Virus record (IMG/VR): IMGVR_UViG_3300045391_004489
Source: a virus
Reading direction: 5' to 3' (one strand)
DNA: 56,618 nt
The number at the start of each line of letters is the position of its first letter. Position 1 is the stretch's first letter. The notes under the pieces are model-generated. The model was given only the letters and a program-made list of their open reading frames with translations. It ran no database searches and was not told where the DNA came from. Shown one piece after another: positions 11,241 to 52,594 of this stretch. A program made the translations under genes and the position numbers.

Positions 11241-11337
11241 GTAACGGGGGTCAAAGGCAGGAAAAGCTAAGCCACATATCGGGTGGATAACAAAGAATGG
11301 AATTCCTAGGAACTCCGTAGGGACATGATCGGACGAC

Positions 11338-11370: not shown

Positions 11371-11527
11371 GTCTCAGGGGGCTCGTGAGGGGGTGGCGAT
11401 TATATAACGCGCGCCCGCGCGTATACCACGGTACATGAGTGTTGTCAAGGACCGTGACCTAACTGAGGGTATGATCTTCGTTACCAAAAGATCTTGAAAA
11501 GTCGTCCGCTTTCGGGTGATTTGTCAC

Positions 11528-11556
11528 TTGACAGGGGGTCGGGGGAGTGAGATGAT
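11528..11556 (+). promoter_or_regulatory. Promoter (TTGACA-N17-GATGAT)
   Basis: cacTTGACAgggggtcgggggagtgaGATGAT; a 9-bp stem ggtcggggg/cccccgacc brackets the -10. Confidence 0.55.
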
Positions 11557-11594
11557 TTACCTATCGCCCCCCGACCGGGGGGCAAACCGAAGGG

Positions 11595-14339: not shown

Positions 14340-14576
14340 ATGAACAAAAACGAACTCGACGCCCTCGCTATCTCGCTCCTCGCCACCGACAACATCGCCG
14401 ACATCATCGCCGACGGGCACGACCAGGCGACTGACGACGAAAACGGCTTCGCCATCGCCGCCGGCAGCTTGATCGAAGACTACCGCGAACTGAACGACAT
14501 CTCCGACGAAGACGCTTTCGATCTTGAAGAGATCATCTGCGAGATGATGATCAACGGCGAATCCGCCAACGACTGA
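14340..14576 (+). CDS. Very acidic small protein (78 aa)
   Basis: By my count 22 Asp/Glu versus 2 Lys/Arg; leaderless start. Confidence 0.65.
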   Translation: MNKNELDALAISLLATDNIADIIADGHDQATDDENGFAIAAGSLIEDYRELNDISDEDAFDLEEIICEMMINGESAND

Positions 14577-14578
14577 CC

Positions 14579-14608
14579 TTGACACAACGAGGCAACACGA
14601 GGTATGAT
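14579..14608 (+). promoter_or_regulatory. Promoter (TTGACA-N18-TATGAT), leaderless
   Basis: The -10 is followed by 6 nt and then ATG 14615. Confidence 0.7.
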
Positions 14609-14614
14609 ATTCCT

Positions 14615-14773
14615 ATGATGATGACGATGATCGATCGAATCCCGACCCGCTTCTTCGAAACCCGCGCTGCGCTGATCGCCTACCGCGTCGCCCGACTCTT
14701 CGATCGCCACGAATCGGGGATCGCCGCCGAAATCCGCGACGCGATCCGCGACAACTCCGATCTCCTCGACTGA
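14615..14773 (+). CDS. Hypothetical protein (52 aa)
   Basis: In-frame ATG of ORF 14579..14773 at the leaderless position. Confidence 0.5.
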   Translation: MMMTMIDRIPTRFFETRAALIAYRVARLFDRHESGIAAEIRDAIRDNSDLLD

Positions 14774-14782
14774 TCTCCTGCC

Positions 14783-14802
14783 AGGGGCGCTCACGCGCCC
14801 CT
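14783..14802 (+). terminator. Hairpin terminator
   Basis: aggggcg-ctcacg-cgcccct. Confidence 0.55.
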
Positions 14803-14822
14803 CTCAGGGCGTATCGCGCCGT

Positions 14823-14855
14823 GTGGAATGCCAGCTATCCGGCTCCACTGATCAT
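14823..14855. repeat. Conserved intergenic element, copy 2
   Basis: gtggaatgccagctatccggctccactgatcat; see 11338..11370. Confidence 0.8.
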
Positions 14856-14899
14856 GCCTCAACGAGCTTTGTATGACGTGGCAAGTTGATGCCATCGAC

Positions 14900-14929
14900 T
14901 TGACAACGCAGCATGACGGGGGATATATT
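14900..14929 (+). promoter_or_regulatory. Promoter (TTGACA-N18-TATATT)
   Basis: acTTGACAacgcagcatgacgggggaTATATT; leader with SD gaaggga. Confidence 0.6.
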
Positions 14930-14962
14930 AGGGGTATCAACAAAACAACGAAGGGAAATCTG

Positions 14963-15208
14963 ATGAAGATCGAACTGACTGATGCGAAGTATCTGATCAT
15001 CCAGCTGAACAAGATCGAGAACGGCGAACCGATCATCCGCCGGCAGGGGGAAGATTATGCGGAAATGCAGAATCTCCCCCTCAATTACTGCACGGAATGC
15101 GATTCCCAGATTGATGATATCTGGAATGACGGGCATATCATGATTGGGGATTGGAAGAATCCCATCATTGCGATTTGCTGCGAGGGATATCACCCCCTTG
15201 AGAAATAG
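14963..15208 (+). CDS. Small Cys-rich protein (81 aa), AT-rich codon usage
   Basis: ATG 14963 after the SD; CTECDSQ...CCEGYH; noticeably lower GC than neighbours. Confidence 0.55.
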   Translation: MKIELTDAKYLIIQLNKIENGEPIIRRQGEDYAEMQNLPLNYCTECDSQIDDIWNDGHIMIGDWKNPIIAICCEGYHPLEK

Positions 15209-15230
15209 ATTAATCTGAGATAATCTGAAT

Positions 15231-15266
15231 GCATATATATCCCTTTGATAAAGGGGGTATATATGC
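15231..15266 (+). terminator. Near-perfect AT/GC hairpin
   Basis: gcatatatatcccttt-gat-aaagggggtatatatgc. Confidence 0.55.
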
Positions 15267-15307
15267 GTGTATATGGGGGAGTAATGAAGGATTAAAATAG
15301 TCTATCC

Positions 15308-15366
15308 ATGTATATCTATGTATATCTCAGAATGAACTGATTGATCCGATCATCTATGTATATCTC
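15308..15366. repeat. Direct repeats ATGTATATCT x3 (15-mer atctatgtatatctc x2)
   Basis: Copies at 15308, 15318 (tandem) and 15356. Confidence 0.9.
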
Positions 15367-15526
15367 GTTGTGTCTGGATGTGTCCGATTTGAACCCCCCC
15401 GGGTGGAATCTCCGGATCTTCGTGATTGTCCATCTTACAGACGGTGGTGAGCGGGGGCTGAGGATCTCCCCCGAAACTTTTAACACCGTTACCTCCTCCC
15501 ACCTTCTCGTGTCCACCACACAAGAA

Positions 15527-15603: not shown

Positions 15604-16971
15604 ATGGCTGGCGAAAACTCCCACCTGAGGTTCCCCAAGCGGTCGGGATACCTCTCCTCGGGTCACCCCAAGCCGGGCGACCCAGGCATCCGCAGCGAAC
15701 GAGGCGAGCGCAACGCCCGACGCCGTGAGGCGGGTCTCCGCATCGTAGCGACCGAGATGGAGAACTCCCCGATCGCCCAGGAGGAGCGGTCTCGACCCCG
15801 CGTAGGCCGTAAGTCCAACCGCACCTTCGACAACCGCGGCGGTCTCGCCCCCCTCTCCACACAGATCGACCCTGTGGGCCGCCAACTCCTCGACGAACTC
15901 GACCCCGAGGATCCTGCTTACCGCAGCAAGTATCGGGGCATCATCGCCGAACACACCCGGGTGTGGGAGGAGCTGGGCGCCACGCCGCTGATCATAGACT
16001 TCTCCAACGTGCAGGAGCCGATCGCCCCGCAGCGACTTCACCCCTCCCACAAGCTCAGCCAGCACCCCGAGCGGCCGCTTTACGTGTGGGCCTTCAAGAA
16101 CGCCCACGCTGCGTATCCGCAGAAGAGTGACGAGGGTCGACGACACCGAGAGGAGTGGTACTGGGAGCAGATGGACAAGGGCATGCTGCCGCCCACGTTC
16201 AATCCCTACGCCCCTGGATCGCCCAAACACCACGCCTTCGAGAACCGCCACGTGCTGGTGGACGACAGACCGACGTCCAAGACCTTCTCCGCGGTCACTC
16301 GTCGCGACACCGGCGAGCCCCAGGAGGTGCTCGACACTCCCCGGCAGCTCCGAGCCCGAGCTCGTCGCAAGCTGCAGGCCGGTGGCAAGCTCTCGGAGGA
16401 GGAGTTCGTCGCTCTGTGTGGAAAACCCATCGAAGAGTGGGACCTTGAGGAGCTCGCCAAGGGTCGTACCAAGGACATCAACGGCGAGTTCAAGGGTCGC
16501 GCTCCCTCCGCCTACATGGCCCGGGAGACCCAGGAGCGCATCGAGACGCTGTTCAAGCAGCGGGTGCGTGGTTCGATGAACGAGACGACGGTCAACGCTT
16601 TGTCGACGCTGTCCCAGGTGCTTGACAACGATGACGTGGACATGCGGGGCAAGCCGGTCGTGGCCGCCTCCACGAAGGTGGACGTGGCGAAATTCTTGGT
16701 CGAACACCTGCTGGGCAAGCCCAAGCAGACCGTGGAGAGTGATATCTCCGTCAAGCTGCAGGGTGTTCTTGCCTCCGTGATGGTGGCGCCGGAGCACGCC
16801 ATGCCGCCGGCGGGCTCCACGGACCCGGTCTCGCCCACGGGCCGTATGTTCGCCGGTCAGCGGGGCTACCGCCAGGACTACGAGGACAGCGAGCTGAAGG
16901 CTCTTGAGCGCGCCGGCATCATCGACGCGGTCGTGGTGGACGATGACGACCTAGAGGAGGGTGGAGAGTGA
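15604..16971 (+). CDS. Hypothetical protein (455 aa), basic N-terminus and acidic C-terminus
   Basis: ORF track; SD gaggggg; no motif recognised, and a small-terminase-like DNA-binding role is only a guess. Confidence 0.7.
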   Translation: MAGENSHLRFPKRSGYLSSGHPKPGDPGIRSERGERNARRREAGLRIVATEMENSPIAQEERSRPRVGRKSNRTFDNRGGLAPLSTQIDPVGRQLLDELDPEDPAYRSKYRGIIAEHTRVWEELGATPLIIDFSNVQEPIAPQRLHPSHKLSQHPERPLYVWAFKNAHAAYPQKSDEGRRHREEWYWEQMDKGMLPPTFNPYAPGSPKHHAFENRHVLVDDRPTSKTFSAVTRRDTGEPQEVLDTPRQLRARARRKLQAGGKLSEEEFVALCGKPIEEWDLEELAKGRTKDINGEFKGRAPSAYMARETQERIETLFKQRVRGSMNETTVNALSTLSQVLDNDDVDMRGKPVVAASTKVDVAKFLVEHLLGKPKQTVESDISVKLQGVLASVMVAPEHAMPPAGSTDPVSPTGRMFAGQRGYRQDYEDSELKALERAGIIDAVVVDDDDLEEGGE

Positions 16972-40039: not shown

Positions 40040-40394
40040 CAACATCGCAAGCTATGGTTTCGCAACAGTACCGATCCTAATATTCGTCCTTTGGACGTGG
40101 CTGGGTAACTGGTACACCTACAGTCTGGGTTGGATGATCATGATCCTGGACCTCGGTCTGTGGATGCTGGACATGCCCTCCACAGCCTACCACATCGTCC
40201 ACTTCAACGTGACCACGGAGGGTTGGAGGTGGTACTACGTCTGCGCCGAGTGGATCATACTGGTGGCGATGACTTGGCGAGGCTACGTGATGATCCGTGA
40301 ACTCTACCTGAAGAAGAAGGAGGCCAAACGATGCGCACCATGTACGACGGGGTCGACTCCGATGCACGAGTCATCCCAGCCAACGCCCAGCTGA
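40017..40394 (+). CDS. Holin-like membrane protein
   Basis: Three or more hydrophobic helices; immediately upstream of the endolysin. Confidence 0.6.
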   Translation: MGIAGMLSNIASYGFATVPILIFVLWTWLGNWYTYSLGWMIMILDLGLWMLDMPSTAYHIVHFNVTTEGWRWYYVCAEWIILVAMTWRGYVMIRELYLKKKEAKRCAPCTTGSTPMHESSQPTPS

Positions 40395-41119
40395 TCGCCT
40401 ACTACATCGACGGCAACTACAAGTGGACCGACGCGGAGATAGCGCTGTTCCCCCACTCGGTTCACGTGCCGATCGCGGTACACTCGACCACCAACAACGG
40501 CATCGTGCTGGACTGTGAGCGAGGAGACGCCACGCCCGCCGAGTCGGTGGACTGGGTGGTGATGCGCCGCAAGGCAGGCGCGGACCCGACGGTGTACTGC
40601 AACCAGAACGATCCGCAGACCGGGTGGCCTGCTGTCCGAGCTGCGTTCAAGGCCCGGGGTGTACCAGAGCCACACTACTGGGTCGCCAACTACAACGGCG
40701 ACACGACGATCCCGGCTGGCGCGACGGCGCACCAGTACAAGAGCACGGCCAGCTGGGATCTGTCCAGTGTGGCCGACTTCTGGCCCGGTGTGGACAAGGA
40801 GCCCGCCGCGCCTGTCACTCAGGAGGAGGATGACATGCAGCAGATAGAACCGCTCCACGAACACCCGGGTGAGTACGCCTACGGCACGCCCGCCGGCAAG
40901 ACGAAGATCAACTTCTTCGCAGACGGCTACAGCATGGCACCGGCGAAGCTGCGCGTCGTGGCCTGGGTCGGACCGAACCCTCAGGTGCACGACGGTCAGA
41001 CTCTCGGAGGCAGCAGCAAGATCCACAGCCTCACCATCGCGCTGCCCTCGGGTTGCACGGCAGTGACCGTGCGCCGGGCGGACACCAGTGAATTCCCCGT
41101 TGGTGTCAACTTCTCCTAG
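40331..41119 (+). CDS. Putative endolysin (glycosidase-like, DUF1906/Rv2525c-type resemblance)
   Basis: Strong SD aaggagg; position after the holin; weak by-eye similarity only. Confidence 0.5.
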   Translation: MRTMYDGVDSDARVIPANAQLIAYYIDGNYKWTDAEIALFPHSVHVPIAVHSTTNNGIVLDCERGDATPAESVDWVVMRRKAGADPTVYCNQNDPQTGWPAVRAAFKARGVPEPHYWVANYNGDTTIPAGATAHQYKSTASWDLSSVADFWPGVDKEPAAPVTQEEDDMQQIEPLHEHPGEYAYGTPAGKTKINFFADGYSMAPAKLRVVAWVGPNPQVHDGQTLGGSSKIHSLTIALPSGCTAVTVRRADTSEFPVGVNFS

Positions 41120-41154
41120 TTGATCATCCGTCGCTGTTACGATATACTACATGG

Positions 41155-41203
41155 GATCGCCCCTTCGCTGATAGTTGGGTCATCAGCGAGGGGGCGATCT
41201 TTT
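41155..41203. terminator. Bidirectional intrinsic terminator between convergent units
   Basis: gatcgccccttcgctgat / atcagcgagggggcgatc (18 bp with one G-U), then tttt. Confidence 0.8.
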
Positions 41204-41239: not shown

Positions 41240-41794
41240 CTAGGAAGCAGTCGCCTGAGTGATGATGCACCCGATGCGCCGCAGGCGCTCAGAGGTTTCT
41301 CTGACGAATTCGGGATCATTCATCTGGTGATTGAGACCGCTGGGATGGGGGAACCGGTAGAACTTGAGTCCCTGTCGCGCGCGTACGACCCGGCCGAACA
41401 TGGGCACGGTACCGGGCAGGTCGAACGCATCCCACACCTTGCGGCCAAGCACGATGACTTCGACCCTGTTGTGCAAGGTGTGGAAATCGGTGTACGCTGA
41501 GGGACTGAGCTGGTTGCGCAGGTAGTCATCCTGCCGGCTTGCGAACAGCTCAGCGTGCATACGAGCTACTCGCTTCGGGAAGTTCTTGGTCTTGAGCGTG
41601 CCCGAGGGTCGACGCTCGTTCTCGAGCTGAGGCAACGGTGTGGGAAACAGGTTGGCCAGGCGGAAGTACCGCAGCAGCTCATCCCTGCTTTCCACACCTG
41701 CCCACTTGAGCAGGCGGTCTCCGCTCGGTCCCGTGAAGGGTCTGCCGTCGCCCAATCTGGACGGAGCTTGACCCAGTATAACTGGAAGTATCAT
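41240..41794 (-). CDS. Uracil-DNA glycosylase superfamily protein (stand-alone)
   Basis: Motif A-like VILGQAPS...PFTGPSGDRL at the extreme N-terminus; motif B-like FPHPSGLN. Confidence 0.7.
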   Translation of the reverse strand: MILPVILGQAPSRLGDGRPFTGPSGDRLLKWAGVESRDELLRYFRLANLFPTPLPQLENERRPSGTLKTKNFPKRVARMHAELFASRQDDYLRNQLSPSAYTDFHTLHNRVEVIVLGRKVWDAFDLPGTVPMFGRVVRARQGLKFYRFPHPSGLNHQMNDPEFVRETSERLRRIGCIITQATAS

Positions 41795-41818: not shown

Positions 41819-41854
41819 GAGCCGGTGGCCATGTATAGTTGTGGCCACCGGCTC
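41819..41854 (-). terminator. Perfect 13-bp intercistronic hairpin
   Basis: gagccggtggcca / tggccaccggctc with a 10-nt loop, between 41874..42413 and the UDG-like gene. Confidence 0.6.
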
Positions 41855-41873: not shown

Positions 41874-42413
41874 TTACTCGTCGTCGTCGAGGTCGAGCTC
41901 GTCGTCCTCGTCGTCGAGCTCCTCGACCGGGTCGGCCTTCTTGGCGGCCTTCTTGGTCGTGGTCTTCTTGGGCTGGGCGGCGCGCTTCTCAGCGGCCTTC
42001 TCCTTCAGCGCGGCCAGCTTGGCGCGCTTCTCCTCCTCGCCCTCGCCGGCGGCGTAGGCCTCGACCAGCGCCACGACCTCCGGGTCCTTCGGGCCGGACC
42101 AGCTGTACTGGGCGCGGTTGCCGGCGACGATCTCGCGGTCGATGCGGCCCGAGTCGTCCCGGGCCAGCTTCCGGGCCAGCACTCGGAGCTCCCGGGGGGT
42201 GACCTCCTTGCCGTGCTTCTGGAGGATGAGGTCGCAGACCTGGCGGATGCCGAATTCGACCTGCGGTCGACCCTTGGAGGTCTTCGCCGGCGTCTCGGAC
42301 TCGACAGTCTCCTCGACCTCCTCGAGCTCCTCCTCGTCCAGTTCCTCGGGCTCCGGCTCGGTGACCTGCGGCTTCGCCGCAGCCTTCTTGCGGGTGGCGG
42401 TACGAGCAGCCAT
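41874..42413 (-). CDS. Acidic/basic nucleoid-protein-like DNA-binding protein
   Basis: Central TPRELRVLARKLA... segment distantly like the 11595 and 1504 products; AKK/KKA-rich region and acidic termini; SD aaaggagaagg. Confidence 0.7.
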   Translation of the reverse strand: MAARTATRKKAAAKPQVTEPEPEELDEEELEEVEETVESETPAKTSKGRPQVEFGIRQVCDLILQKHGKEVTPRELRVLARKLARDDSGRIDREIVAGNRAQYSWSGPKDPEVVALVEAYAAGEGEEEKRAKLAALKEKAAEKRAAQPKKTTTKKAAKKADPVEELDDEDDELDLDDDE

Positions 42414-42463
42414 TTCCTTCTCCTTTATTCGGCGATCATTCGTCGGTGATGTCGACAGGGCCT

Positions 42464-42492
42464 ACTTTATACCGAGTGCGCCGGCATGTCAA
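42464..42492 (-). promoter_or_regulatory. Promoter, leftward (TTGACA-N17-TAAAGT)
   Basis: Minus strand ccTTGACAtgccggcgcactcggtaTAAAGT. Confidence 0.65.
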
Positions 42493-42543
42493 GGTGGCCG
42501 GAACCCTCGCCTGAGCACGCCTATATATAATCGCCAACGGCGG

Positions 42544-42572
42544 TTGACATAGTAGCCATGATGCGATACCAT
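42544..42572 (+). promoter_or_regulatory. Promoter (TTGACA-N17-TACCAT), leaderless
   Basis: The -10 is followed by 6 nt and then ATG 42579; divergent from 42464..42492. Confidence 0.65.
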
Positions 42573-42578
42573 GGTGGC

Positions 42579-42941
42579 ATGCGATTGATAGTAGTTGAGG
42601 TAGATAACGACGAGACCGCTGAGAAGCTGGTCGCCAAGTTGAACGCGACAGGATTCGCTCGCGTCAAGGGCATGTTCCAGGTGCCCAAAGCCCGGTGCAA
42701 GTGCGCTAACCTCGAAGAGAGGTTCGGCAAACTGGTGCCGGCACAGAAGAAGTCTATCCGGGGGCAACTCTTCGGGTGGTGGGTACACGACGTTTGCCAC
42801 AAGGTAGCGAAGGGGCTGCACTCGGAGAGCAAGAACCTGATCAAGCGCGAAGACCAGCCTCAGGGAGAAGGGCTGCTGCCGACCTACGTTGACTACATCG
42901 CGTGGCACGACAAGGGCTTCTACAATGACGATCCCAAGTGA
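42579..42941 (+). CDS. Hypothetical protein (120 aa)
   Basis: In-frame ATG of ORF 42558..42941 at the leaderless position. Confidence 0.6.
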   Translation: MRLIVVEVDNDETAEKLVAKLNATGFARVKGMFQVPKARCKCANLEERFGKLVPAQKKSIRGQLFGWWVHDVCHKVAKGLHSESKNLIKREDQPQGEGLLPTYVDYIAWHDKGFYNDDPK

Positions 42942-44562: not shown

Positions 44563-44880
44563 ATGCGTATACTGAAGAAGGTTGCCGGTGGTGCTGACAC
44601 CATCGGCGACCTCAAAGAGTTCATCGCGGCTGCAACGCAGGAAGGATTCACCGACGACCACAGGCTGAACGGCGGCGCCACCGTGGGGCTCTTCGTACAG
44701 GTGAACGACGACCGGCAAGCGCCGCTCGAGGACTACACCGGCAAGTGCGTCGAGTGCTTGCGCCGGGTTCCCGCGACCAAGGAGGGCGTGGCTAAGTCGC
44801 ACCTCAGGGGAGACACTGTTCACTCGGGGGAGTGCAGCGGCAGCCACCGGCGGGTCACTCAGCTGGGGCCGAGCCTGTGA
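44563..44880 (+). CDS. Hypothetical protein
   Basis: ORF track; strong SD. Confidence 0.55.
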   Translation: MRILKKVAGGADTIGDLKEFIAAATQEGFTDDHRLNGGATVGLFVQVNDDRQAPLEDYTGKCVECLRRVPATKEGVAKSHLRGDTVHSGECSGSHRRVTQLGPSL

Positions 44881-45407
44881 TCATCCTGGAGGGGCCGGAC
44901 GGCGCCGGCAAGACCTCGCTCATCCGACACCTGAACGACTGGCTCGCCATGCCGGTCGCTCCGAGGGTGGTGGGCCAGGACACCAAGCCACTCGTGGATA
45001 TATACGAGTGGACGAACAAGAACCTGGCTGAGGGTTTCCAGGACAAGCTCTTTGACCGACACCGCCTCATATCTGAGCCGATCTACTCGACGGTGATGGG
45101 TGGCGACCGGGACGAACAGTTCTGGGATCCGGCCTGGATGGGCGCTGCGCTCCGGGCGTTGCGGGAGATACAGCCGATAGTTATCTGGTGTCTGCCTAGT
45201 TTCAAGGCGGTCAATCACAACGTTCTCGGCGACCCGCACAACCAGACGGTGTGGATGCACATCGACAAGATCTACAAGGCCTATCAGTATGCGTGGTTGC
45301 TCAACACCTACGCGCCCTATCAGGTCCTCTGGGACTACCAGAACACCGATCTCCGGTGGTTCCAAGACCATCTGACCAACCTCATACGACGCAGGAAGGA
45401 CTCCTGA
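44877..45407 (+). CDS. Thymidylate-kinase-like dNMP kinase
   Basis: GTGA-coupled GTG start; P-loop ILEGPDGAGKTS; DRH..SEPIYS resembles the Tmk DR(Y/F)..S motif. Confidence 0.8.
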   Translation: MIILEGPDGAGKTSLIRHLNDWLAMPVAPRVVGQDTKPLVDIYEWTNKNLAEGFQDKLFDRHRLISEPIYSTVMGGDRDEQFWDPAWMGAALRALREIQPIVIWCLPSFKAVNHNVLGDPHNQTVWMHIDKIYKAYQYAWLLNTYAPYQVLWDYQNTDLRWFQDHLTNLIRRRKDS

Positions 45408-45892
45408 TGCTGGAGATCCCGACCGAGATATCCACGGATGACCCGAAGCAGCACGGCATCCCGTATCAGTCGGCGGCAGGTGTGGAGGGCGATCTCCCAC
45501 ACCGGGGGACGTACGACATGCTCCGAACGATCTTCGCGGGGCAGGTGCAGCTCGCTCAGCGGTACTACGAGGTGGAGCTCAAGAACGGCGAGCCCATGCC
45601 GTCGGAGGCCGACTGGGGCAACCTGCACTCGCGCACCGTCCAGATGAGGCTGCAGAGTCTCTTCGGGTATCTCGTGAGGGAGATGGGTGAGGCTGTCCAG
45701 CACCTGGACGCCAAGCCCTGGAAGACCAACTACCGCCCGACGCCCAGGAAGGAGTTCGTCGAGGAAGTGGCCGACTCGCTGCACTTCTTCGTCGAGTTCT
45801 GCCTGGTCGCCGGGATCGGGTCGAAGGAACTCTTCGACACCTACTTCTCGAAGTGGCAGACGAACCGTGACCGACAGGCCTCCAGTTACTAG
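45407..45892 (+). CDS. All-alpha NTP pyrophosphohydrolase (MazG / dimeric dUTPase-dCTPase type)
   Basis: ATGA-coupled; EMGEAVQHL ... EEVADSLHFFVEF acidic metal-binding helices. Confidence 0.75.
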   Translation: MLEIPTEISTDDPKQHGIPYQSAAGVEGDLPHRGTYDMLRTIFAGQVQLAQRYYEVELKNGEPMPSEADWGNLHSRTVQMRLQSLFGYLVREMGEAVQHLDAKPWKTNYRPTPRKEFVEEVADSLHFFVEFCLVAGIGSKELFDTYFSKWQTNRDRQASSY

Positions 45893-46003: not shown

Positions 46004-47068
46004 GTGTACACCTACACCGCCAAGACGATGTCCGGTCTGCTGGACAGCATGACGCTGGACATCATGAGAGCTCCGTCGGACGAGCTCGACGTCATCTCCA
46101 ACGTCGACGTAGCCAAGCAGAATGTCATGGGCTACGCCGAGCACATGGACTACGAATTCGACCTCAAGACCATCTGGTTGGGTACAGCCCGCTGGTCGAT
46201 GATGGTCCGGCAGTACCTCGATCGTGACGAGGTGATGTCGTGGCTCCACCAGGCCTCCACTAAGATCGGCAAGCGAGGTCGAGGTCAGGCAGTACTTCGC
46301 ACCCGCATCGTTAAGCCCCGAGGTGGCGCCGCAACTGGCCACACGAACATGCAGACCCGCAAGTGGGGATCCTGCATGTTGTCGCTCAGCTACCGAGCAC
46401 TTCCCACACCGACGATCACGCTTCACAGTCGCACCTCGTATCTGGGGTATCTGTCGGCGCTGGACTTCAACATCGCCCACGTCTTGGGCCGGTATCTCGC
46501 CGACCAGATCGGCATCTCAGTCAAGGACATGTCGTTCGTGTGGATGGTTGAGTCAGTGCAGTGGCACGGCTTCAAGTCGCTGCCCTTCGCCATCTGCAAC
46601 AGCGACCCCAAGATCCGCCGATACTACCGACGTCTGCTGACCAAGAAGTTCGACGACTTGGACGCTGAGGAGCTCATCGAGTCCCAGACGCCGGCGATGC
46701 TGGTCACACGTCGATGGGTCAACTATGTCCGTCGGGAGGACCAGGCGGGCATGACTCTCGGCGACACGAACTACAACACTTACCGTCGAGTCCGCCGGCG
46801 GTGGCACACCGAAGTGCTGGGTTACAAGAAGGCCCAGGAGTTCGAGGGGTGGTCCCACGATCGCAACACGGGGGAGCGGAAGGAGTTCTTCAAGGCCTAC
46901 AAGCCTCTGCCCTCCGTCATGACTTCGTCGCTGGATCTGTCGCCGCTCAAGCTCCCGTTCGGGGGGGCATGGGTCTCGAACATCGACCTGACCGAGGACA
47001 TCAACGAGGCTGACACCATGTGCCTCTACTGTGGGGAGACCGAGTATGACGAATGCGAAGAAGACTGA
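46004..47068 (+). CDS. Divergent thymidylate-synthase(ThyA)-fold protein, function unknown
   Basis: By-eye alignment to the ThyA core: WGSCMLSLSY ~ [16 protein letters not shown] ~ YQRSC, DFNIAH ~ PFNIAS, DMSFVWMVESVQWH ~ DFVWTGGDTHLY. Confidence 0.6.
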   Translation: MYTYTAKTMSGLLDSMTLDIMRAPSDELDVISNVDVAKQNVMGYAEHMDYEFDLKTIWLGTARWSMMVRQYLDRDEVMSWLHQASTKIGKRGRGQAVLRTRIVKPRGGAATGHTNMQTRKWGSCMLSLSYRALPTPTITLHSRTSYLGYLSALDFNIAHVLGRYLADQIGISVKDMSFVWMVESVQWHGFKSLPFAICNSDPKIRRYYRRLLTKKFDDLDAEELIESQTPAMLVTRRWVNYVRREDQAGMTLGDTNYNTYRRVRRRWHTEVLGYKKAQEFEGWSHDRNTGERKEFFKAYKPLPSVMTSSLDLSPLKLPFGGAWVSNIDLTEDINEADTMCLYCGETEYDECEED

Positions 47069-47270
47069 TCGTCCGAAGTACATCTTCACCGTTATCGCCA
47101 ACGCCGCCGGGGGTTACGACGTCACCCGTCGAACCGCTGGTTCGGCACAGTCCTGGGTCATGGTATCGTATGACGACCGACAGGACGCCGACAACCTCAA
47201 GCAGCAGCTCGACATGCTGGAGCTCAGGGTGTGGGCTCGACGCGTACGACAGGCCAGGAAGAAGGGCTGA
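47046..47270 (+). CDS. Hypothetical protein (74 aa)
   Basis: In-frame ATG of ORF 47031..47270. Confidence 0.5.
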   Translation: MTNAKKTDRPKYIFTVIANAAGGYDVTRRTAGSAQSWVMVSYDDRQDADNLKQQLDMLELRVWARRVRQARKKG

Positions 47271-48145
47271 TGCACCACATACAAAGCCGATGGTTTCCCT
47301 CGATATGGGACGACGCAGTAGAGCTGCTCCTCACGTTCGGCGAGACCATCGATGGCTCAACTCGGTGGCAAGGCCAGGACGTTGCCGGTAAGCAGGACAT
47401 GGTGCCGGTCGAACTGCAGAACGTGATATTTGAGATGAGCATGCCCCACACAGTCGCGGGTGCCAACCGGGTGTATCACCCGAACCTGCCCTGGGCTGAG
47501 GACCACTTCCTCGAACGTGTGGGAGGCGCTCCGCTCAATCCGCCCCCGTCGGCTAAGACCTGGCCCTTCGCTCAGTCTGGCCATGTGATGCACACCGACA
47601 AGCAGGGTCAGTTCTCCCACACGTACCCCGAGCGGTTCTGGCCGAAGCACGCTGGTCACTCGGCGACTGGCTGTAACGCCGTGACTCATGAAGAGGGTGA
47701 CAACATCTACTGCGACTACGGTCGCAATATCGGGGTTAGGTACTACCTTGGCGATCTGATCGACGTGGTCGATCTGCTTCGCCGTGAGCCGAGCACCCGT
47801 CAGGCCTATCTGCCGATCTGGTTCCCGGAAGACACGGGTGCAGCCGAGGGTCAGCGGGTGCCGTGCTCTCTCGGGTACCACTTCATGGTCCGCGAGGGCA
47901 AGCTTAACATCACGTACATGATCCGCGCGGTGGACTTCATGCGCCACTTTCGGGACGACGTCTACATGGCGACTCGTCTTGCTCAGTGGGTGGCGAGGGA
48001 GTTGGATAACTTGTACCCGCCGGGAATGTTGACCATGCACATCATGTCGTTGCACTGCTTCGTTGGTGACATGCCGGCGCTTCGATCGATCGCTTCAAAG
48101 ATTGGTCAAGGACGGTCTGAGAGATTGCTTGGAGCGATGAGATGA
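47270..48145 (+). CDS. ThyA-family pyrimidine-C5 enzyme with Asp at the Asn177 position (dCMP hydroxymethylase/methylase-like)
   Basis: TRQAYLPIWFPED...VPCSLGYHFMVREGKLNITYMIRAVDFMRHFRDDVYMATRL aligns colinearly with E. coli ThyA SRRIIVSAWN...[40 protein letters not shown]. Confidence 0.8.
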   Translation: MHHIQSRWFPSIWDDAVELLLTFGETIDGSTRWQGQDVAGKQDMVPVELQNVIFEMSMPHTVAGANRVYHPNLPWAEDHFLERVGGAPLNPPPSAKTWPFAQSGHVMHTDKQGQFSHTYPERFWPKHAGHSATGCNAVTHEEGDNIYCDYGRNIGVRYYLGDLIDVVDLLRREPSTRQAYLPIWFPEDTGAAEGQRVPCSLGYHFMVREGKLNITYMIRAVDFMRHFRDDVYMATRLAQWVARELDNLYPPGMLTMHIMSLHCFVGDMPALRSIASKIGQGRSERLLGAMR

Positions 48146-49022: not shown

Positions 49023-51545
49023 ATGATCTACGACAGCGCTTGCACCAAGTGCAAGTTGCATCGTGGCACCGAGTCCGTCTGCGACCCTGGTTTCGGCCAG
49101 GCGCAGGCGGACATTATGGTGGTGTCCAAGATGCCGAACGGCGACAGATACCAAGCCGCGCTCGAGGAGGACCTGGCTCAGGCAGGTGTGGATCTGGGGC
49201 GAATATACTGGGCGTCGGCGCTGAAGTGCCGAAACTTCGACGCCAATGCTAGCAACGCGGATGTCAAGGCATGTAAGCCCTACCTCGACGCTGAGATCGA
49301 GAAGGTTCAGCCCCGGTACATCCTCTCCCTGGGTAACGAGGCGCTCCTCGCGACGACGGGTCACAGTGGTATCACGAAGTGGCGCGGCAAACCCGTGGAG
49401 CTGGGCAACATGACCATCTTCCCGACCATCTCGCCGGCGGCTGTACTCGCCCGCCCTCAGAATCGCCCGGGCTACCAGGCCGACCTGAAGTTCTTCGCCA
49501 CGATGGCGAACGGTCAGCAAGCTGAGGGTGTGAAGGTGATCACGCCCGACACGATTCTGAGCAATGATGATCTGAGACTACTCAAGGTCAGATTGAAGGA
49601 CGCCAAGCTGGTGTACTTCGACATCGAGACTAACATCGTGCCGCTCCAGGAGTTCGACCCTCGCGCTCGGGTTATCTCGATGTGCGGCACATATGTCAGC
49701 GCCTCCACAGGCGAGGTGGGAGGCTTCAGGATTCCTCTGTATCACCCTGAATCGCCTTGGCGCACTCAGTGGCGATCTATGCTGCGGCACGTCGTGCCAA
49801 TCATGGCCAAGATCCCAATCCGCATCGCACACAACGGTAAGTTCGACTGCCGGTGGTTGCGTAAGCACAGCGGGGTCCACATCACTCTCACGTTCGACAC
49901 CATGATTGGTGTACACCTGCTGGACGAGAATGTGCAGAAGGGTCTTAAGCCACAGGGCACGATGAGACTCGGCGTCGCACCATGGGGTGTGGACACGAAA
50001 GACCTGCTCAGCATGCCGATCGAGGAGGTACTGGAGTACAACTTCCTCGACACTTTCTACGGCTACCTGATCTATCTGCAGGTACGCGAGGAGCTCATCG
50101 CTCAGCCCAGGTTGCTCCGGATCATGATGAAGTTGCTCATGCCGGCAAGCAACAATCTCACAACTGCGGAGGGTAACGGTGTCTGGCTTGACGTCGAGAG
50201 ACTTGCAGAACGTACCCCGATCGCCCAGGCTAAGCTCGATGAGATCGAGAACAAGGTTCGGGCTTACATTCCCGATCCCTCGATCGAGACCTGGCCCACG
50301 AACAAGGCTGGCAAGAAGGTGGAGGTTAATCTCAACGCGTCAATCTTCGCCAAGTGGTTACTCTTCGACCACCTCGGACTACCTGTACTGGCTCGAGGTA
50401 AGGAGAAGCCTGACGGCCGGCCGGGCGACCCAAGCATGGCTGAGGGAGTACTACTCCTTCTCAACGACGTGCCCAAACCCCACCCCGTCGTGCAGACTAT
50501 GCTGGATCGCATCGAATGGCAGAAAGCTATGTCGTCGTTCTTCGGTCCCTATTCGGGTCTGTACGACGAGAACCAGAAAGTCCACACATCCTTCAAGCTT
50601 ACCGGCACTGTCACCGGCCGACTTAGCAGTGGCAAGGAGGATGCTTCAAAACTTAGTGGACGCACTTCGTCTATTCGGGGAGTCAATCTTCAGCAAGTTC
50701 CCCGCGATCCATTCATCCGCGGTCTCTTCGGTGCAAGTCCAGGTCGTACCTGGATTGAGGCCGACTTCTCTCAAGTTGAGCTTAGGGTCGCTGCCTTCTG
50801 TGCTAAAGAACGGACGATGATCTCGCTCTATCAGCAGGGCGCAGACATCCACATGGTTACGGCCATGCGCATGACAGGCAAGGCAGCGAAGAACATCACC
50901 AAAGAGGAACGGAAGAAGGCCAAGCCGGTGAACTTCGGCTTCCTCTACGGTATGGGGTGGCTGAAGTTCATCGTCACCGCGTTCAACAACTATGGGGTGA
51001 AGTTCAGCGAGGCAGAAGCGAAGGCTTACCGTAAGGCATACTTCGATCTGTACCCCGATCTGCTCGCCTGGCACGAACGTCAGCGACGACTCGTACATTA
51101 CAACGCTCGGGTGCAGTCGCCGATCGGCCGAGTACGTCACCTGCCGGACATCAACTCCCCCGATCCAAAGGTGCGTGCAGAGGCTGAGCGTCAGGCCATC
51201 AACTCTCCCGTACAGGGGTTGGCCAGCGACATGGCCTTGGCCGGGATGAATTTGTTCGTTGAGAGGTTGACAACCGAGGGTCTGTCGGATAAGGTCTCAG
51301 TACTGGGCCTTGTTCACGACGCCATCAATATCGAGGCTGATGACGACGTCGCGGGCCGGGCCATGGTACTGCTGAAGGAGTCGATGGAGGACATGGACAA
51401 CATGCGGAGGCTGTTCGGCCTCGACATGACCGTGCCTATCGTCGCCGACGTCAAGGTGGGCCGACACTGGGGTGACTCGGTCGAACTCACCGAGGAGCAG
51501 GTCTACGACTTCACCACACTCGACAAGATGGGATTAGTTGCATGA
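49023..51545 (+). CDS. Family A DNA polymerase with 3'-5' exonuclease and N-terminal degenerate UDG-family-4-like domain
   Basis: Exo I VYFDIETN; motif A DFSQVELRVAAF; motif B RKKAKPVNFGFLYG; motif C LVHDAI; N-terminus CTKCKL...ADIMVVSKMPNG...KC...LGNEAL...PTISPAAVL. Confidence 0.92.
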   Translation: MIYDSACTKCKLHRGTESVCDPGFGQAQADIMVVSKMPNGDRYQAALEEDLAQAGVDLGRIYWASALKCRNFDANASNADVKACKPYLDAEIEKVQPRYILSLGNEALLATTGHSGITKWRGKPVELGNMTIFPTISPAAVLARPQNRPGYQADLKFFATMANGQQAEGVKVITPDTILSNDDLRLLKVRLKDAKLVYFDIETNIVPLQEFDPRARVISMCGTYVSASTGEVGGFRIPLYHPESPWRTQWRSMLRHVVPIMAKIPIRIAHNGKFDCRWLRKHSGVHITLTFDTMIGVHLLDENVQKGLKPQGTMRLGVAPWGVDTKDLLSMPIEEVLEYNFLDTFYGYLIYLQVREELIAQPRLLRIMMKLLMPASNNLTTAEGNGVWLDVERLAERTPIAQAKLDEIENKVRAYIPDPSIETWPTNKAGKKVEVNLNASIFAKWLLFDHLGLPVLARGKEKPDGRPGDPSMAEGVLLLLNDVPKPHPVVQTMLDRIEWQKAMSSFFGPYSGLYDENQKVHTSFKLTGTVTGRLSSGKEDASKLSGRTSSIRGVNLQQVPRDPFIRGLFGASPGRTWIEADFSQVELRVAAFCAKERTMISLYQQGADIHMVTAMRMTGKAAKNITKEERKKAKPVNFGFLYGMGWLKFIVTAFNNYGVKFSEAEAKAYRKAYFDLYPDLLAWHERQRRLVHYNARVQSPIGRVRHLPDINSPDPKVRAEAERQAINSPVQGLASDMALAGMNLFVERLTTEGLSDKVSVLGLVHDAINIEADDDVAGRAMVLLKESMEDMDNMRRLFGLDMTVPIVADVKVGRHWGDSVELTEEQVYDFTTLDKMGLVA

Positions 51546-52594
51546 CCACGATGACAATCACTACGAAGGGAGGCTTCAAGAATCCACTCAGCGTGATCGA
51601 GCGGCGGTGGCTCAAGGTGTGGACCTTGGGCCACGTTGTTTTGCTCTCCACGATCTACATGCTGGACTCGATGAGCCACCGTACCTTCGACCAGACCATC
51701 CAGGCCTGGGACGCCAACATCTTTCAGAACATCGCTCGCTACGGTTACTTCGAACATCAGTCCACACCTCACAGTGTCGCCTTCTTCCCCGGCCTGCCAG
51801 TTATCCTGGGTCTAACCAAGAACTTCACCGCGGGCAACTGGGTGGTGGCTGAACTGTTGATCGCTTATGTATCTGGATCGATCGCGCTAGTGGGCCTCGC
51901 CCGACTTCATCCCGCCGCTCCCAAGTTCATGCTCATGTCTCCCGCAACCATCTTTTTGATGCTCGGGTATAGTGAATCGCCCTATCTTGCCTTTGCAGTG
52001 TGGGCATGGTACCACACCAGGCGGCGTCACTACTGGGCTGCGGGATGGTTGCTCGCCGGCGCATGCTCACTTCGTGTGGAGGGTCTGTTTCTGTGGATCT
52101 CACTTATGTTGATGGGCAAATCGGTCAAGCTGATGATAGGGCTTATCACACCCCTCCTCTACGAGCTGTTCCTCTTCGTCCACACCCACGACTGGCTGGC
52201 CTGGAGTCATGCAGAGGCTGCCGGTTGGAACCGCCGCACCGAGTGGCCATGGGATACCTGGGAGGCCTCATGGCACTACGCGGGGTGGGCTGGCGGATCA
52301 TACGGCGGGGAGGAGAAAGTCGAGATCTTCTGCGCCATCGTCATGCTACTCTTCTGTATCATCTTCCTGATTGACAAAGACTGGCCCTCTCTGGTATACT
52401 GCTGTATCACGATGATGACGCTAACTACCTCTGACTTCTACATGAGCATCCCGCGGGCACTGCTCGTAGTCTTTCCCATCTGGGTCAGGCTGGCACGGTC
52501 GAGAGAGACTGTGCGCTGGGGATGGTTGTCGGTAGCCGCGCCTGTCATGGTGATGATCAGTTACTTCTACCTGACAGGACAGTGGGCTGGATGA
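51542..52594 (+). CDS. Polytopic membrane GT-C glycosyltransferase (PIG-V/mannosyltransferase-like)
   Basis: WDANIFQNIARYGY...HSVAFFPGLPVILG signature followed by many TM helices. Confidence 0.7.
   Translation: MTTMTITTKGGFKNPLSVIERRWLKVWTLGHVVLLSTIYMLDSMSHRTFDQTIQAWDANIFQNIARYGYFEHQSTPHSVAFFPGLPVILGLTKNFTAGNWVVAELLIAYVSGSIALVGLARLHPAAPKFMLMSPATIFLMLGYSESPYLAFAVWAWYHTRRRHYWAAGWLLAGACSLRVEGLFLWISLMLMGKSVKLMIGLITPLLYELFLFVHTHDWLAWSHAEAAGWNRRTEWPWDTWEASWHYAGWAGGSYGGEEKVEIFCAIVMLLFCIIFLIDKDWPSLVYCCITMMTLTTSDFYMSIPRALLVVFPIWVRLARSRETVRWGWLSVAAPVMVMISYFYLTGQWAG

What the first reader, a model, noticed from the sequence alone, without database searches (positions are those of the whole stretch)
41240..41794. 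Stand-alone UDG-superfamily gene on its own leftward island in a genome predicted to modify cytosine
Seen: a 184-aa protein that begins directly at a motif-A-like strand (MILPVILGQAPS...PFTGPSGDRL). It ends with a motif-B-like FPHPSGLN, which is the architecture of UDG families 2/4/5, but with Gln-Ala-Pro-Ser instead of GE(A/G)PG or GQDPY. It is transcribed against the flanking modules. It lies behind a perfect 13-bp intercistronic hairpin (41819..41854) and ends at a bidirectional terminator.

Established: small active-site changes retarget UDG-fold enzymes to other bases.

Inference: in a phage whose own DNA may lack normal C, a retargeted glycosylase could attack host DNA, process modification intermediates or counter host uracil/deaminase-based defence.
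Basis: partly seen in the sequence, partly recalled or inferred. Interest (0 to 1): 0.65.

Follow-up and report, generated by a model that had tools for sequence, protein, structure and literature searches.

The report
Phage mini-UDG tied to cytosine modification

Summary
Window 41240..41794 (-) encodes a 184-aa protein that passes Pfam's UDG threshold. It folds confidently (pLDDT 91) into a UDG fold. It has GQAPS in place of the usual motif A and FPHPSGLN as motif B.

It fits none of the described UDG families:
- It has no Fe-S cysteines.
- It has no motif-A Asp or Asn.
- It pairs a family-4-like motif A with a MUG-like motif B.

It belongs to a large uncharacterised clade (phrog_12275, "unknown function"), with 3,715 representative clusters. 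In that clade the uracil-contacting Asn (N48) and the catalytic His (H150) are invariant.

The genome does look like a cytosine modifier. It carries:
- a thymidylate-synthase homolog with Asp at the N177 specificity position;
- a second, unannotated TS-fold protein;
- a dUTPase_2-type NTPase, a P-loop kinase and a dCMP deaminase.

Its DNA polymerase carries a UDG domain that lacks the catalytic residues.

In 26 of 35 unrelated viral contigs, clade members lie within 10 kb of a cytosine-C5 modification gene, usually adjacent to it. These genes are CmoX-type C5 methyltransferase cassettes, TET-associated glycosyltransferases or TS homologs.

Best reading: a repair glycosylase for deaminated, 5-substituted cytosine. 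This is inferred, not assayed. An attack on host cytosine is not supported.

The parts
41240..41794 (-). Gene for the 184-aa mini-UDG (motif A G8-QAPS, F20, N48, motif B H150-PSGLN).
   Evidence: ORF and sequence. Pfam PF03167 scores 36.3 bits against a cut-off of 24.3. AF2 model pLDDT 91.4. Foldseek finds UDG-fold hits only. Forty homologs of 29-77% identity.
41819..41854 (-). Intercistronic RNA stem-loop (13-bp perfect stem, 10-nt loop) between the upstream gene and the UDG gene. No U-tract follows it. It probably attenuates or stabilises read-through into the UDG gene (inferred).
   Evidence: Hairpins of different sequence lie at the same position in L001-L004. No promoter-like site lies between it and the UDG start.
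41874..42413 (-). First gene of the leftward island: a 179-aa highly charged protein with acidic stretches and a Lys/Ala-rich tail. It is conserved upstream of the UDG in relatives. Function unknown; possibly DNA-binding.
   Evidence: sequence. phrog_16498, unknown function. No Pfam hit. The syntenic partner is present in L001-L005 and L011-L017. It is also present without a UDG in Curtobacterium phage Shrew, gene 67.
42464..42492 (-). Promoter-like site (TTGACA-17-TAAAGT) for the leftward island. It is divergent from a rightward promoter-like site at 42544..42572.
   Evidence: This is a consensus match only.
41153..41203 (.). Strong hairpin between the convergent lysis-side gene (40331..41119 +) and the UDG gene. 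It is a canonical terminator (T-run) on the + strand only.
   Evidence: -55.7 kcal/mol for 121 nt on the + strand (z -5.2) and -45.9 on the - strand (z -5.9).
47231..48145 (+). Thymidylate-synthase homolog with Asp at the E. coli ThyA N177 position, the dCMP-type specificity residue. D169 is retained.
   Evidence: Pfam and PHROG hits. The best PDB sequence hits are MilA CMP hydroxymethylase and the L. casei TS N229D mutants. BLASTP against E. coli ThyA. Residue rules come from PMC13326640.
46004..47068 (+). Second TS-fold protein (354 aa, phrog_13667 'unknown function'), highly conserved in the lineage.
   Evidence: AF2 pLDDT 86.9. Foldseek hits: MilA at E 5.6e-8, phage HY126 dCMP hydroxylase and T4 dCMP hydroxymethylase. 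More than 1000 homologs.
45407..45892 (+). All-alpha dNTP pyrophosphatase (dUTPase_2 family).
   Evidence: Pfam PF08761 scores 28.5 bits against a cut-off of 22.9. The same family is called in relatives.
44832..45407 (+). P-loop nucleotide kinase-like protein.
   Evidence: phrog_761 'thymidylate kinase', E 1.3e-10. Weak AAA hits. Annotated 'adenylate kinase' in phage Shrew.
48142..48639 (+). dCMP deaminase. Its start overlaps the stop of the TS homolog.
   Evidence: Pfam PF00383, E 3e-22.
49023..51545 (+). Family-A DNA polymerase whose N-terminal UDG-like domain (about residues 1-160) lacks the catalytic residues. It has KMPN for GEAPG, Ser for the uracil-binding Asn, and ISPAA for HPxA.
   Evidence: Pfam UDG + exo + PolA. 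Sequence. Alignment across seven lineage members. The class with a dead UDG domain is described in the text read.

Best explanation
The gene encodes a small, monofunctional DNA glycosylase. It belongs to an uncharacterised, mainly phage-borne clade of the UDG superfamily.

Proposed mechanism:
- It flips a uracil-type base into a pocket. F20 stacks on the base, N48 reads N3-H/O4, and H150 of motif B stabilises the leaving base.
- It cuts the glycosidic bond and leaves an abasic site for host base-excision repair.
- Its likely targets are the deamination products of the phage's own 5-substituted cytosine. These are uracil and probably 5-substituted uracils (T or hmU-type) opposite G, which host UNG cannot remove.

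On this view it is the repair companion of cytosine-C5 modification, playing the role that Vsr plays for Dcm or TDG/MBD4 for 5mC. It is transcribed from the divergent early-side promoter behind a stem-loop that probably keeps its level low.

Shown: the fold, the conserved residues, and the genomic association with C5-modification genes. Inferred: the substrate range, the mismatch preference, the timing and the attenuation.
For: 1. UDG fold and family.
- Pfam hit above threshold.
- AF2 model pLDDT 91.4, pTM 0.88.
- All significant Foldseek hits are UDG-superfamily proteins: UdgX, MUG, TDG, family 4 and phage UDGs.

2. The active-site kit is under strict selection. Across 179 clade members, N48 is kept in 178 of 178, and P149-H150-P151-S152 in 179 of 179. 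G8 is kept in 174, and position 20 is F in 134 and L in 38.
- Profile alignment puts N48, H150, F20 and Q9 on family-4 N80, H155, F54 and E41.
- The roles of those family-4 residues in uracil binding and catalysis were measured (PMC5387724).

3. The residue where UNG has the thymine-excluding Tyr is always small: S in 122, A in 30, G in 16. Motif B, PSGL(N/S), matches the MUG wedge NPSGLS. Both are compatible with 5-substituted uracils opposite G.

4. This genome predicts 5-substituted cytosine.
- TS homolog with the N177-equivalent Asp (residue rule).
- A second TS-fold enzyme, dUTPase_2, a kinase and a dCMP deaminase.

5. Clade-wide neighbourhood. Of 35 IMG/VR loci fetched with a motif from short clade members:
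- 15 have a C5 DNA-methylase homolog next to the UDG. It often comes with homologs of the CmoA, CmoY and chorismate-mutase genes of the 5-carboxymethylcytosine pathway.
- 9 have a TET-associated glycosyltransferase.
- 2 more have a TS homolog.
(pathway.)
- The order and orientation of these genes vary, which argues for a functional link rather than mere inheritance.

6. C5 methyltransferases deaminate their target C to U when the cofactor is missing (PMC3804486, abstract). This gives a concrete source of lesions.

7. The polymerase's own UDG domain lacks the catalytic residues throughout the lineage. Any phage-encoded glycosylase activity must therefore come from this gene.
Against: - No activity was measured.
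- The Q9-A10 doublet corresponds to the E41Q change, which lowers Thermus family-4 UDG activity about 900-fold. The enzyme may therefore be slow or work differently.
- The alignment of the loop after motif A, which decides whether C5 substituents fit, is ambiguous because that loop is two residues shorter than in family 4.
- Cultured relatives with the same nucleotide module (phages Shrew, Zuko, Triscuit) lack the gene. Its window-type subclade is rare next to the more than 1000 homologs of the neighbouring TS-fold gene. It is therefore dispensable.
- In this window the gene lies 5.5 kb from the TS genes. It keeps its place by synteny within one lineage, so here the link rests on the wider clade.
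- No AP endonuclease was identified in the window, although not all small genes were annotated.
- The 35 loci are not phylogenetically independent. L030-L033 are near-duplicates, and so are L039 and L040.
Confidence: 0.5

Rival explanations
1. It is an ordinary uracil-only DNA glycosylase supplied in trans to the replication machinery. It removes dU misincorporated from the dUTP that the phage's own pyrophosphatase and dCMP-deaminase flux generates. It thereby substitutes for the dead UDG domain on the polymerase.
For: - The uracil-binding residues are conserved.
- The polymerase-fused UDG domain is inactive across the lineage.
- Phages with UDG-polymerase fusions use them to remove dU ahead of the fork, and many phages encode a UDG in trans (bioRxiv 10.1101/2025.03.26.645540).
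- A dCMP deaminase and a dUTPase_2-type enzyme are present.
Against: - It does not explain why clade members sit directly beside post-replicative cytosine modifiers (CmoX-type methyltransferases, TAGT) in phages of other architectures.
- Most lineage members with the same dead-UDG polymerase lack the gene.
- There is no bulky residue at the position that excludes thymine in UNG.
Confidence: 0.25
2. It is a glycosylase for a modified cytosine or a modification intermediate: TDG-like excision of 5fC, 5caC, 5-carboxymethyl-C or incompletely modified bases. It would act either as quality control of the phage's own hypermodification or as a weapon against competing or host DNA.
For: - The clade is adjacent to TET-associated glycosyltransferase and CmoX-type cassettes.
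- From established knowledge, mammalian TDG (UDG family 2) is the partner of TET and removes 5fC and 5caC while keeping an Asn in the pocket.
- Brig1 shows that UDG-fold enzymes can take bulky cytosine derivatives.
- The small residue at motif A position 5 leaves room at C5.
Against: - N48 is invariant, whereas Brig1 uses Glu to read the cytosine face.
- Dense excision from the phage's own fully substituted genome would be self-destructive.
- There is no match to defence-system models.
- The clade occurs with chemically different modifications, which a single modified-cytosine specificity would not fit.
Confidence: 0.15
3. It is a non-catalytic or non-glycosylase UDG-fold protein. It could be a uracil- or lesion-binding factor, a cross-linking protein like UdgX, or a base-exchange enzyme.
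For: - The Q-A doublet resembles a crippling mutation in family 4.
- The closest solved fold is UdgX.
- UDG domains that have lost catalysis exist in this very genome.
Against: - The catalytic His and the base-reading Asn are invariant over 179 diverged sequences. That is not expected of a degenerate domain.
- The UdgX-specific loop with its nucleophilic His is absent.
Confidence: 0.07

Closest known systems
Family 4 UDG (UDGa; Thermus thermophilus TTHA0718 / 1UI0, Sulfolobus tokodaii 4ZBX) and its offshoot UdgX
   Same: - The motif A layout G-x-A-P-x ... G-R-P-F-x-G-x-x-G aligns.
- The base-reading Asn (N80) corresponds to N48, the stacking Phe (F54) to F20 and the motif B His (H155) to H150.
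- These give the best Foldseek E-values, with UdgX at 1.6e-4.
   Different: - It has Gln instead of the family's Glu (E41) in most members. Across 179 members the count is Q 134, E 38.
- It has Ser instead of the final Gly of GEAPG.
- The loop after motif A is two residues shorter.
- It has no Fe-S cysteines (one Cys in total) and no N-terminal extension.
- The UdgX KRRIH loop is absent.
- Identity is at most 21% and TM-score only about 0.5.
Family 2 MUG/TDG (E. coli MUG 1MUG/1MTL; human TDG)
   Same: - It is small and has no Fe-S cluster.
- Motif B PSGL(N/S) matches the MUG NPSGLS wedge.
- Foldseek TM normalised to MUG is up to 0.65.
- The proposed job, removing deaminated or 5-substituted pyrimidines opposite G, is the MUG/TDG job.
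   Different: - Motif A has Ala where MUG/TDG have the catalytic Asn (GINPG).
- Motif B starts with His rather than Asn or Met.
- Sequence similarity is not significant (E 0.14-0.34).
PDB 3IKB, an uncharacterised UDG-fold protein of Streptococcus mutans
   Same: It is the best sequence match of the wider clade's profile to any solved structure (E 1.1e-6). It shares GQAPG, SGDRL and a GKG-x-GD loop.
   Different: It has Pro where this clade has the invariant N48, and HPSPRN as motif B. It is itself uncharacterised, and I found no paper on it.
Vsr endonuclease with Dcm; T:G mismatch glycosylases encoded next to C5 methyltransferases
   Same: They share the proposed logic: a repair enzyme is encoded together with the cytosine-C5 modifier whose product or side reaction yields U or T opposite G. 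This comparison rests on established knowledge and on PMC3804486.
   Different: The fold and chemistry are unrelated, since Vsr is an endonuclease. The analogy is functional and inferred.
Brig1, an anti-phage UDG-superfamily glycosylase (Nature 2024)
   Same: It is a UDG-fold enzyme whose biology revolves around phage cytosine hypermodification.
   Different: - Brig1 is host-encoded.
- It excises alpha-glucosyl-hmC.
- It reads the base with Glu (E147) instead of Asn.
- This protein is phage-encoded and keeps Asn.

Membership tests
UDG superfamily (Pfam PF03167) | Profile score above the curated threshold. | tested here: met
   36.3 bits against a cut-off of 24.3, covering residues 5-171.
UDG superfamily (Pfam PF03167) | Alpha/beta UDG fold, with motif A after strand beta1 and motif B (x-P-S) late in the chain. 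| tested here: met
   AF2 model pLDDT 91.4. The significant Foldseek PDB hits (19 with E <= 0.001) are all UdgX or MUG, followed at weaker E-values by TDG and family 4. G8-QAPS and H150-PSG are present.
Family 1 UNG | Motif A GQDPY with the catalytic Asp and the thymine-excluding Tyr; motif B HPSPLS. | tested here: not met
   A10 replaces the Asp and S12 replaces the Tyr. UNG structures appear only at Foldseek E > 0.02.
Family 2 MUG/TDG | Motif A G-I-N-P-G with the catalytic Asn; no His in motif B. | tested here: not met
   Ala is at the Asn position and His starts motif B. Only the PSGL wedge resembles MUG.
Family 3 SMUG1 | Motif A GMNPG; motif B HPSPRN. | tested here: not met
   Neither motif is present. 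No SMUG1 structure appears among the 50 Foldseek PDB hits listed.
Family 4 UDGa | Motif A GE(A/G)PG with Glu. | tested here: not met
   The window protein has Q9. Across the clade the count is Q 134 and E 38 of 179, and the last residue is S, A or G.
Family 4 UDGa | 4Fe-4S cluster held by four conserved Cys. | tested here: not met
   There is a single Cys (C177) in the protein, and the clade median is 1 Cys.
Family 4 UDGa | Base-reading Asn (N80) and motif B His (H155). | tested here: met
   N48 and H150 align to them and are invariant.
Family 5 UDGb | Motif A GLAPA, Fe-S cluster, motif B HPSPLN. | tested here: not met
   GQAPS, no Cys ligands, HPSGLN. The family-5 structure 2D3Y appears only at Foldseek E 0.011.
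UdgX | GEQPG plus the inserted KRRIH loop, whose His cross-links to the abasic site. | tested here: not met
   There is no such loop or His in the window protein or in the clade.
Family 6 HDG (hypoxanthine-DNA glycosylase) | Family-specific motifs and the NCBIfam model for the family. | tested here: inconclusive
   No NCBIfam model matched at E <= 10. I did not compare against HDG sequences directly.
phrog_12275 (phage protein family, unknown function) | Match to the PHROG profile. | tested here: met
   The window protein scores E 4.7e-9, over the C-terminal part only. All 43 sampled clade members match, with a best E of 3.6e-30.
Brig1-like defence glycosylases | Glu instead of Asn reading the Watson-Crick face; an enlarged pocket for glucosyl-hmC; host defence-island context. 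| tested here: not met
   Asn is invariant. The gene is phage-encoded. There is no PADLOC hit, although Brig1 postdates that library. Pocket size could not be measured.

The most novel reading that the evidence does not exclude
The clade could be the phage counterpart of the TET-TDG axis. On this reading it is a dedicated glycosylase, or even a base-exchange enzyme, that recognises unfinished, over-oxidised or wrongly placed 5-substituted cytosines such as 5fC, 5caC and 5-carboxymethyl-C. It would proofread or erase hypermodification, or destroy rival DNA that carries a different mark. It would then be an unrecognised core component of several cytosine hypermodification systems: CmoX, TET/TAGT and TS-based.
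Probability: 0.15. Interest if true: 0.85.

Novelty: new variant of a known kind. Interest (0 to 1): 0.6.

Why it matters
Phage DNA hypermodification is being mapped quickly. The papers I could read on the 5-carboxymethylcytosine pathway, the phage TET/glycosyltransferase clusters and the phage T-dioxygenases do not mention a UDG-family partner.

A large clade (3,715 representative clusters, listed in PHROGs as 'unknown function') recurs beside three chemically different cytosine-C5 modification systems. This points to a general cost of modifying cytosine: its decay to uracil-type bases that host UNG cannot remove. It also suggests a dedicated phage answer to that cost.

Biochemically, the clade would add a compact (140-190 aa), cluster-free UDG family with an untested motif combination. 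It could be useful as a reagent if it excises 5-substituted uracils or cytosines.

For this window, it turns an isolated oddity into a testable prediction about both the phage's DNA chemistry and the enzyme's substrates.

Tried and rejected
- **Direct sequence matches.** phmmer against PDB sequences gave nothing. tblastn against 50,697 deposited phage genomes found no match at E <= 0.01. NCBIfam gave nothing, and PADLOC defence models gave nothing.
- **Thymidine hypermodification.** I first suspected this (hmdU) because of the dCMP deaminase, the TS homolog and the UDG-polymerase fusion. I rejected it for the annotated TS homolog, which has Asp rather than Asn at the N177 position. No aGPT-Pplase was found.
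- **5-hydroxy-dCMP synthase.** The diagnostic D169N change is absent, because D169 is kept.
- **Methyl or hydroxymethyl product.** This could not be decided. The L143-equivalent residue aligns as Arg with HMMER and as Val with BLAST.
- **Stand-alone UDG as a copy of the polymerase's UDG domain.** They share no detectable similarity.
- **Host cytosine or thymine attack.** The invariant Asn disfavours it. In addition, the phage's own thymine appears unmodified, so thymine excision would be suicidal.
- **The hairpin as a canonical intrinsic terminator.** It has no U-tract.
- **Searches that failed or found little.** The search for related loci failed with the broad alignment A2 and with A1 on genomes. 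A scan of 185,579 species genomes found no close relative of the window-type clade. It found only eight short-type members, all in Verrucomicrobia MAGs, with no modification genes detected nearby.
- **Literature on PDB 3IKB.** None found.
Full report
**1. The observation**

Window 41240..41794 on the minus strand is an ATG-initiated ORF of 184 codons. GC3 is 0.73 against GC2 of 0.45, as in the neighbouring genes.

The protein begins MILPVILGQAPSRLGDGRPFTGPSGDRL and carries FPHPSGLN at residues 148-155. A C-terminal helix follows that motif.

One public gene call for this same contig starts at a TTG 13 codons downstream (P0001, 171 aa). That start would remove motif A. Homologs align from residue 1 with G8, A10 and P11 conserved, so the ATG is the better start.

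The gene is the second of two leftward genes; the first is 41874..42413. They lie between a rightward tail and lysis block and a rightward replication block.

Signals around the island:
- The 13-bp perfect hairpin at 41819..41854 is real. Related contigs have hairpins of different sequence at the same place. No U-tract follows it.
- The downstream hairpin (about 41153..41200) is very stable but has a T-run only on the plus strand.
- Promoter-like hexamers face both ways in the 42414..42580 gap.

**2. What the protein is**

Pfam's UDG model matches above its curated cut-off (36.3 bits against 24.3, residues 5-171). An AlphaFold2 model built on 36 homologs is confident (pLDDT 91.4, pTM 0.88).

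Foldseek finds only UDG-superfamily structures at significant E-values: UdgX, MUG, TDG and family 4. Identity is at most 21% and TM-scores are about 0.5-0.65. Among predicted viral structures, the best matches are two small phage proteins annotated as UDG, from Bordetella phage MW2 and Sinorhizobium phage phiM9.

By sequence, no solved protein matches the single sequence. A profile of the subclade reaches family 4 only through motif A, and MUG only through motif B, at E of 0.04-0.14.

The protein has one cysteine, so it cannot hold the Fe-S cluster of families 4, 5 and UdgX. It has Ala where families 1-3 have the catalytic Asp or Asn. It has Gln where family 4 has Glu. It is therefore a UDG-fold protein outside the described families; the membership table gives the tests one by one.

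**3. The clade**

A word-indexed search found 40 relatives, most of them on contigs of 55-64 kb. An exhaustive profile search of 1.84 billion cluster representatives found 3,715 proteins at E <= 1e-3 and 1,185 at E <= 1e-10. Most are only 140-170 aa.

All 43 sampled members match phrog_12275, which PHROGs lists as 'unknown function'.

Conservation over 179 members:
- N48 is kept in 178 of 178.
- P149-H150-P151-S152 is kept in 179 of 179.
- Position 9 is Q in 134 and E in 38.
- Position 12 is always small (S 122, A 30, G 16).
- Position 20 is F or L.

A profile of the wider clade aligns N48 with the family-4 Asn that hydrogen-bonds uracil N3 and O4. It aligns H150 with the His that stabilises the leaving uracil, F20 with the stacking Phe, and Q9 with E41. 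The roles of those residues were measured in Thermus UDGa (PMC5387724).

The same paper shows that E41Q alone costs about 900-fold in activity. That is a caution about how fast this enzyme may be.

The window's subclade differs from the short majority. It has a roughly 30-residue insert (about residues 52-105), and it has lost a GKGD-x-F loop that the short forms conserve.

**4. The genome around it**

The window is a whole 56.6-kb phage contig. Its polymerase is 47-50% identical to those of actinobacteriophages: Curtobacterium phage Shrew, Streptomyces phage Zuko and Microbacterium phage Triscuit.

Rightward of the island lie, in order:
- an SNF2 helicase;
- a P-loop kinase-like protein;
- a dUTPase_2-type pyrophosphatase;
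- a 354-aa protein of unknown function;
- a thymidylate-synthase homolog;
- a dCMP deaminase;
- a family-A polymerase with an N-terminal UDG domain.

*The TS homolog.* Its best solved relatives are MilA (a CMP hydroxymethylase) and, tellingly, the N229D mutants of L. casei TS. Alignments to T4 td, MilA and E. coli ThyA all put an Asp at the N177/N229 specificity position, while D169 is kept. According to the rules summarised in PMC13326640, this predicts a dCMP-specific C5 enzyme that is not a 5-hydroxy-dCMP synthase. Whether the product is methyl or hydroxymethyl could not be decided.

*The 354-aa protein.* PHROGs lists it as unknown. It also has a TS fold (AF2 pLDDT 86.9; Foldseek hits to MilA, a phage dCMP hydroxylase and T4 dCMP hydroxymethylase). 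It has more than 1,000 close homologs.

*The polymerase's UDG domain.* Throughout the lineage it lacks the equivalents of E41, N80 and H155. It therefore belongs to the catalytically dead class described for N4-like polymerases.

No C5 DNA methyltransferase or TET-associated glycosyltransferase is present in the window. Any cytosine modification would therefore be made at the nucleotide level, before replication.

**5. Synteny**

Homologs from 77% down to 33% identity occupy the same leftward island. They sit next to the same charged upstream gene, in contigs with the same nucleotide module.

Cultured relatives have the module and the upstream gene but no UDG. The gene is therefore an accessory of this lineage.

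**6. The unexpected part**

Three more distant members (P0037, P0094, P0149) sit beside a C5 DNA methylase, an asparagine-synthetase-like ligase, a SAM-methyltransferase-fold protein and a chorismate mutase. That set corresponds to the CmoX, CmoY and CmoA genes of the recently described 5-carboxymethylcytosine pathway (PMC12783734). The chorismate mutase would supply the prephenate that CmoA needs.

I fetched 35 viral contigs using a motif of the short clade members. I searched their flanks with phmmer and Pfam. The tally is:
- 15 loci have the C5-methylase homolog directly next to the UDG, in varied order and orientation.
- 9 loci have a TET-associated glycosyltransferase (PF20691). It is adjacent in 7 of them.
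- 2 further loci have a TS homolog. One of these, L052, combines the ligase, a TS homolog of the window's type and a dCMP deaminase.
- 9 loci show none of these genes.

Some loci are near-duplicates, and the set is not phylogenetically independent. Even so, three chemically different cytosine-C5 systems share this neighbour.

The papers on the CmoX pathway, the phage TET clusters and the phage T-dioxygenases do not mention a UDG-family gene in the text I searched.

**7. How it most likely works**

The invariant Asn and His, together with the stacking Phe, argue for an active glycosylase that reads a uracil-type face.

The small residue in place of UNG's Tyr and the MUG-like PSGL wedge are compatible with 5-substituted uracils opposite G.

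The shared feature of all the contexts is 5-substituted cytosine. Its deamination products (T, hmU and the like) are invisible to host UNG. In the post-replicative systems there is also a C5-methyltransferase-fold enzyme, and such enzymes deaminate their target C to U when cofactor is short (PMC3804486).

I therefore read the protein as the repair companion of cytosine-C5 modification, functionally like Vsr beside Dcm.

Expression from the divergent early-side promoter through a conserved stem-loop suggests early, low-level synthesis. This step is inferred.

**8. Rivals**

- **A plain uracil-only UDG working in trans for a polymerase with a dead UDG domain.** This fits the window but not the clade's neighbourhoods.
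- **A TDG-like enzyme acting on modified cytosines or intermediates.** This fits the TET association and cannot be excluded, because TDG also keeps an Asn. It is hard to reconcile with a fully substituted genome and with the chemical diversity of the contexts.
- **Attack on host cytosine.** This is disfavoured by the invariant Asn; Brig1, which takes a cytosine derivative, uses Glu at that position.
- **A non-catalytic role.** This is disfavoured by the strict conservation of the catalytic residues.

**9. Verdict**

The proposed host-attack role is not supported.

The gene is a member of a large, unstudied UDG clade whose recurrent link to cytosine-C5 modification cassettes appears to be undescribed. 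All functional statements remain inferences until the enzyme is assayed.

Noticed in passing
window 46004..47068 (+): The 354-aa protein listed by PHROGs as unknown (phrog_13667, no Pfam hit) is predicted to have a thymidylate-synthase fold. Foldseek hits include MilA, phage HY126 dCMP hydroxylase and T4 dCMP hydroxymethylase. It has an invariant Cys124 and more than 1000 close homologs. The lineage therefore carries two TS-fold enzymes in tandem.
   Followed up: partly
window 49023..49500 (+) and the same region of L001-L005 and L007: The N-terminal UDG-like domain of the family-A polymerase has KMPN for GEAPG, Ser for the uracil-binding Asn and ISPxA for HPxA in all seven lineage members. 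It still keeps several conserved Cys. It looks like a catalytically dead UDG module retained on the polymerase.
   Followed up: partly
L021, L022, L026, L027, L030-L033, L035, L037, L038, L042, L044, L047, L054; also L006, L009, L010: Short members of the same UDG clade are encoded directly beside homologs of the 5-carboxymethylcytosine pathway genes: a C5 methyltransferase (CmoX-like), a CmoA-like SAM enzyme, an Asn-synthetase-like ligase and a chorismate mutase. Gene order and orientation vary between loci.
   Followed up: yes
L020, L025, L028, L029, L034, L041, L043 (adjacent); L019, L039, L040 (1.5-3.7 kb away): Other clade members sit next to TET-associated glycosyltransferase genes (PF20691). 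In L034 the UDG gene lies between the glycosyltransferase and an NAD-dependent sugar epimerase/dehydratase.
   Followed up: partly
L043 4184..7813 (+): A single 1,210-aa ORF combines a TET-associated glycosyltransferase domain (residues 100-316) with a family-A DNA polymerase domain (residues 853-1208). It lies immediately upstream of a mini-UDG gene.
   Followed up: no
L052 (UDG about 9590..10579; ligase 10537..11928; TS homolog 14573..15442; deaminase 15714..16316): One contig combines the mini-UDG and the Asn-synthetase-like ligase with a TS homolog of the window's type and a dCMP deaminase. It bridges the pre-replicative and post-replicative contexts.
   Followed up: no
window 51542..52594 (+): A 350-aa polytopic membrane protein with a short but above-threshold match to PIG-V-type mannosyltransferases (GT-C-like) sits between the polymerase and the PD-(D/E)XK nuclease genes. 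That is an odd place for an envelope-modifying enzyme.
   Followed up: no
window 41874..42413 (-): The upstream island gene encodes a 179-aa protein with a basic N-terminus, long acidic runs, a Lys/Ala-rich histone-tail-like segment and an acidic C-terminus. It is conserved next to the UDG gene and also in phage Shrew, which lacks the UDG. Its function is unknown.
   Followed up: partly
window 42544..42600 (+): The rightward promoter-like -10 hexamer (42567..42572) lies inside the longest ORF that starts at 42558. The real start may be the ATG at 42580, which would give a leaderless or near-leaderless mRNA.
   Followed up: no
L023 3730..5868 (+): A terminase large-subunit ORF next to a mini-UDG gene contains a Hint (intein-type) domain.
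   Followed up: no
L055-L062: Short-type clade members also occur in several Verrucomicrobia MAG contigs, some of them large (0.55-1.7 Mb). No C5-modification genes were detected within 8 kb. These copies may be prophage-borne or cellular.
   Followed up: no
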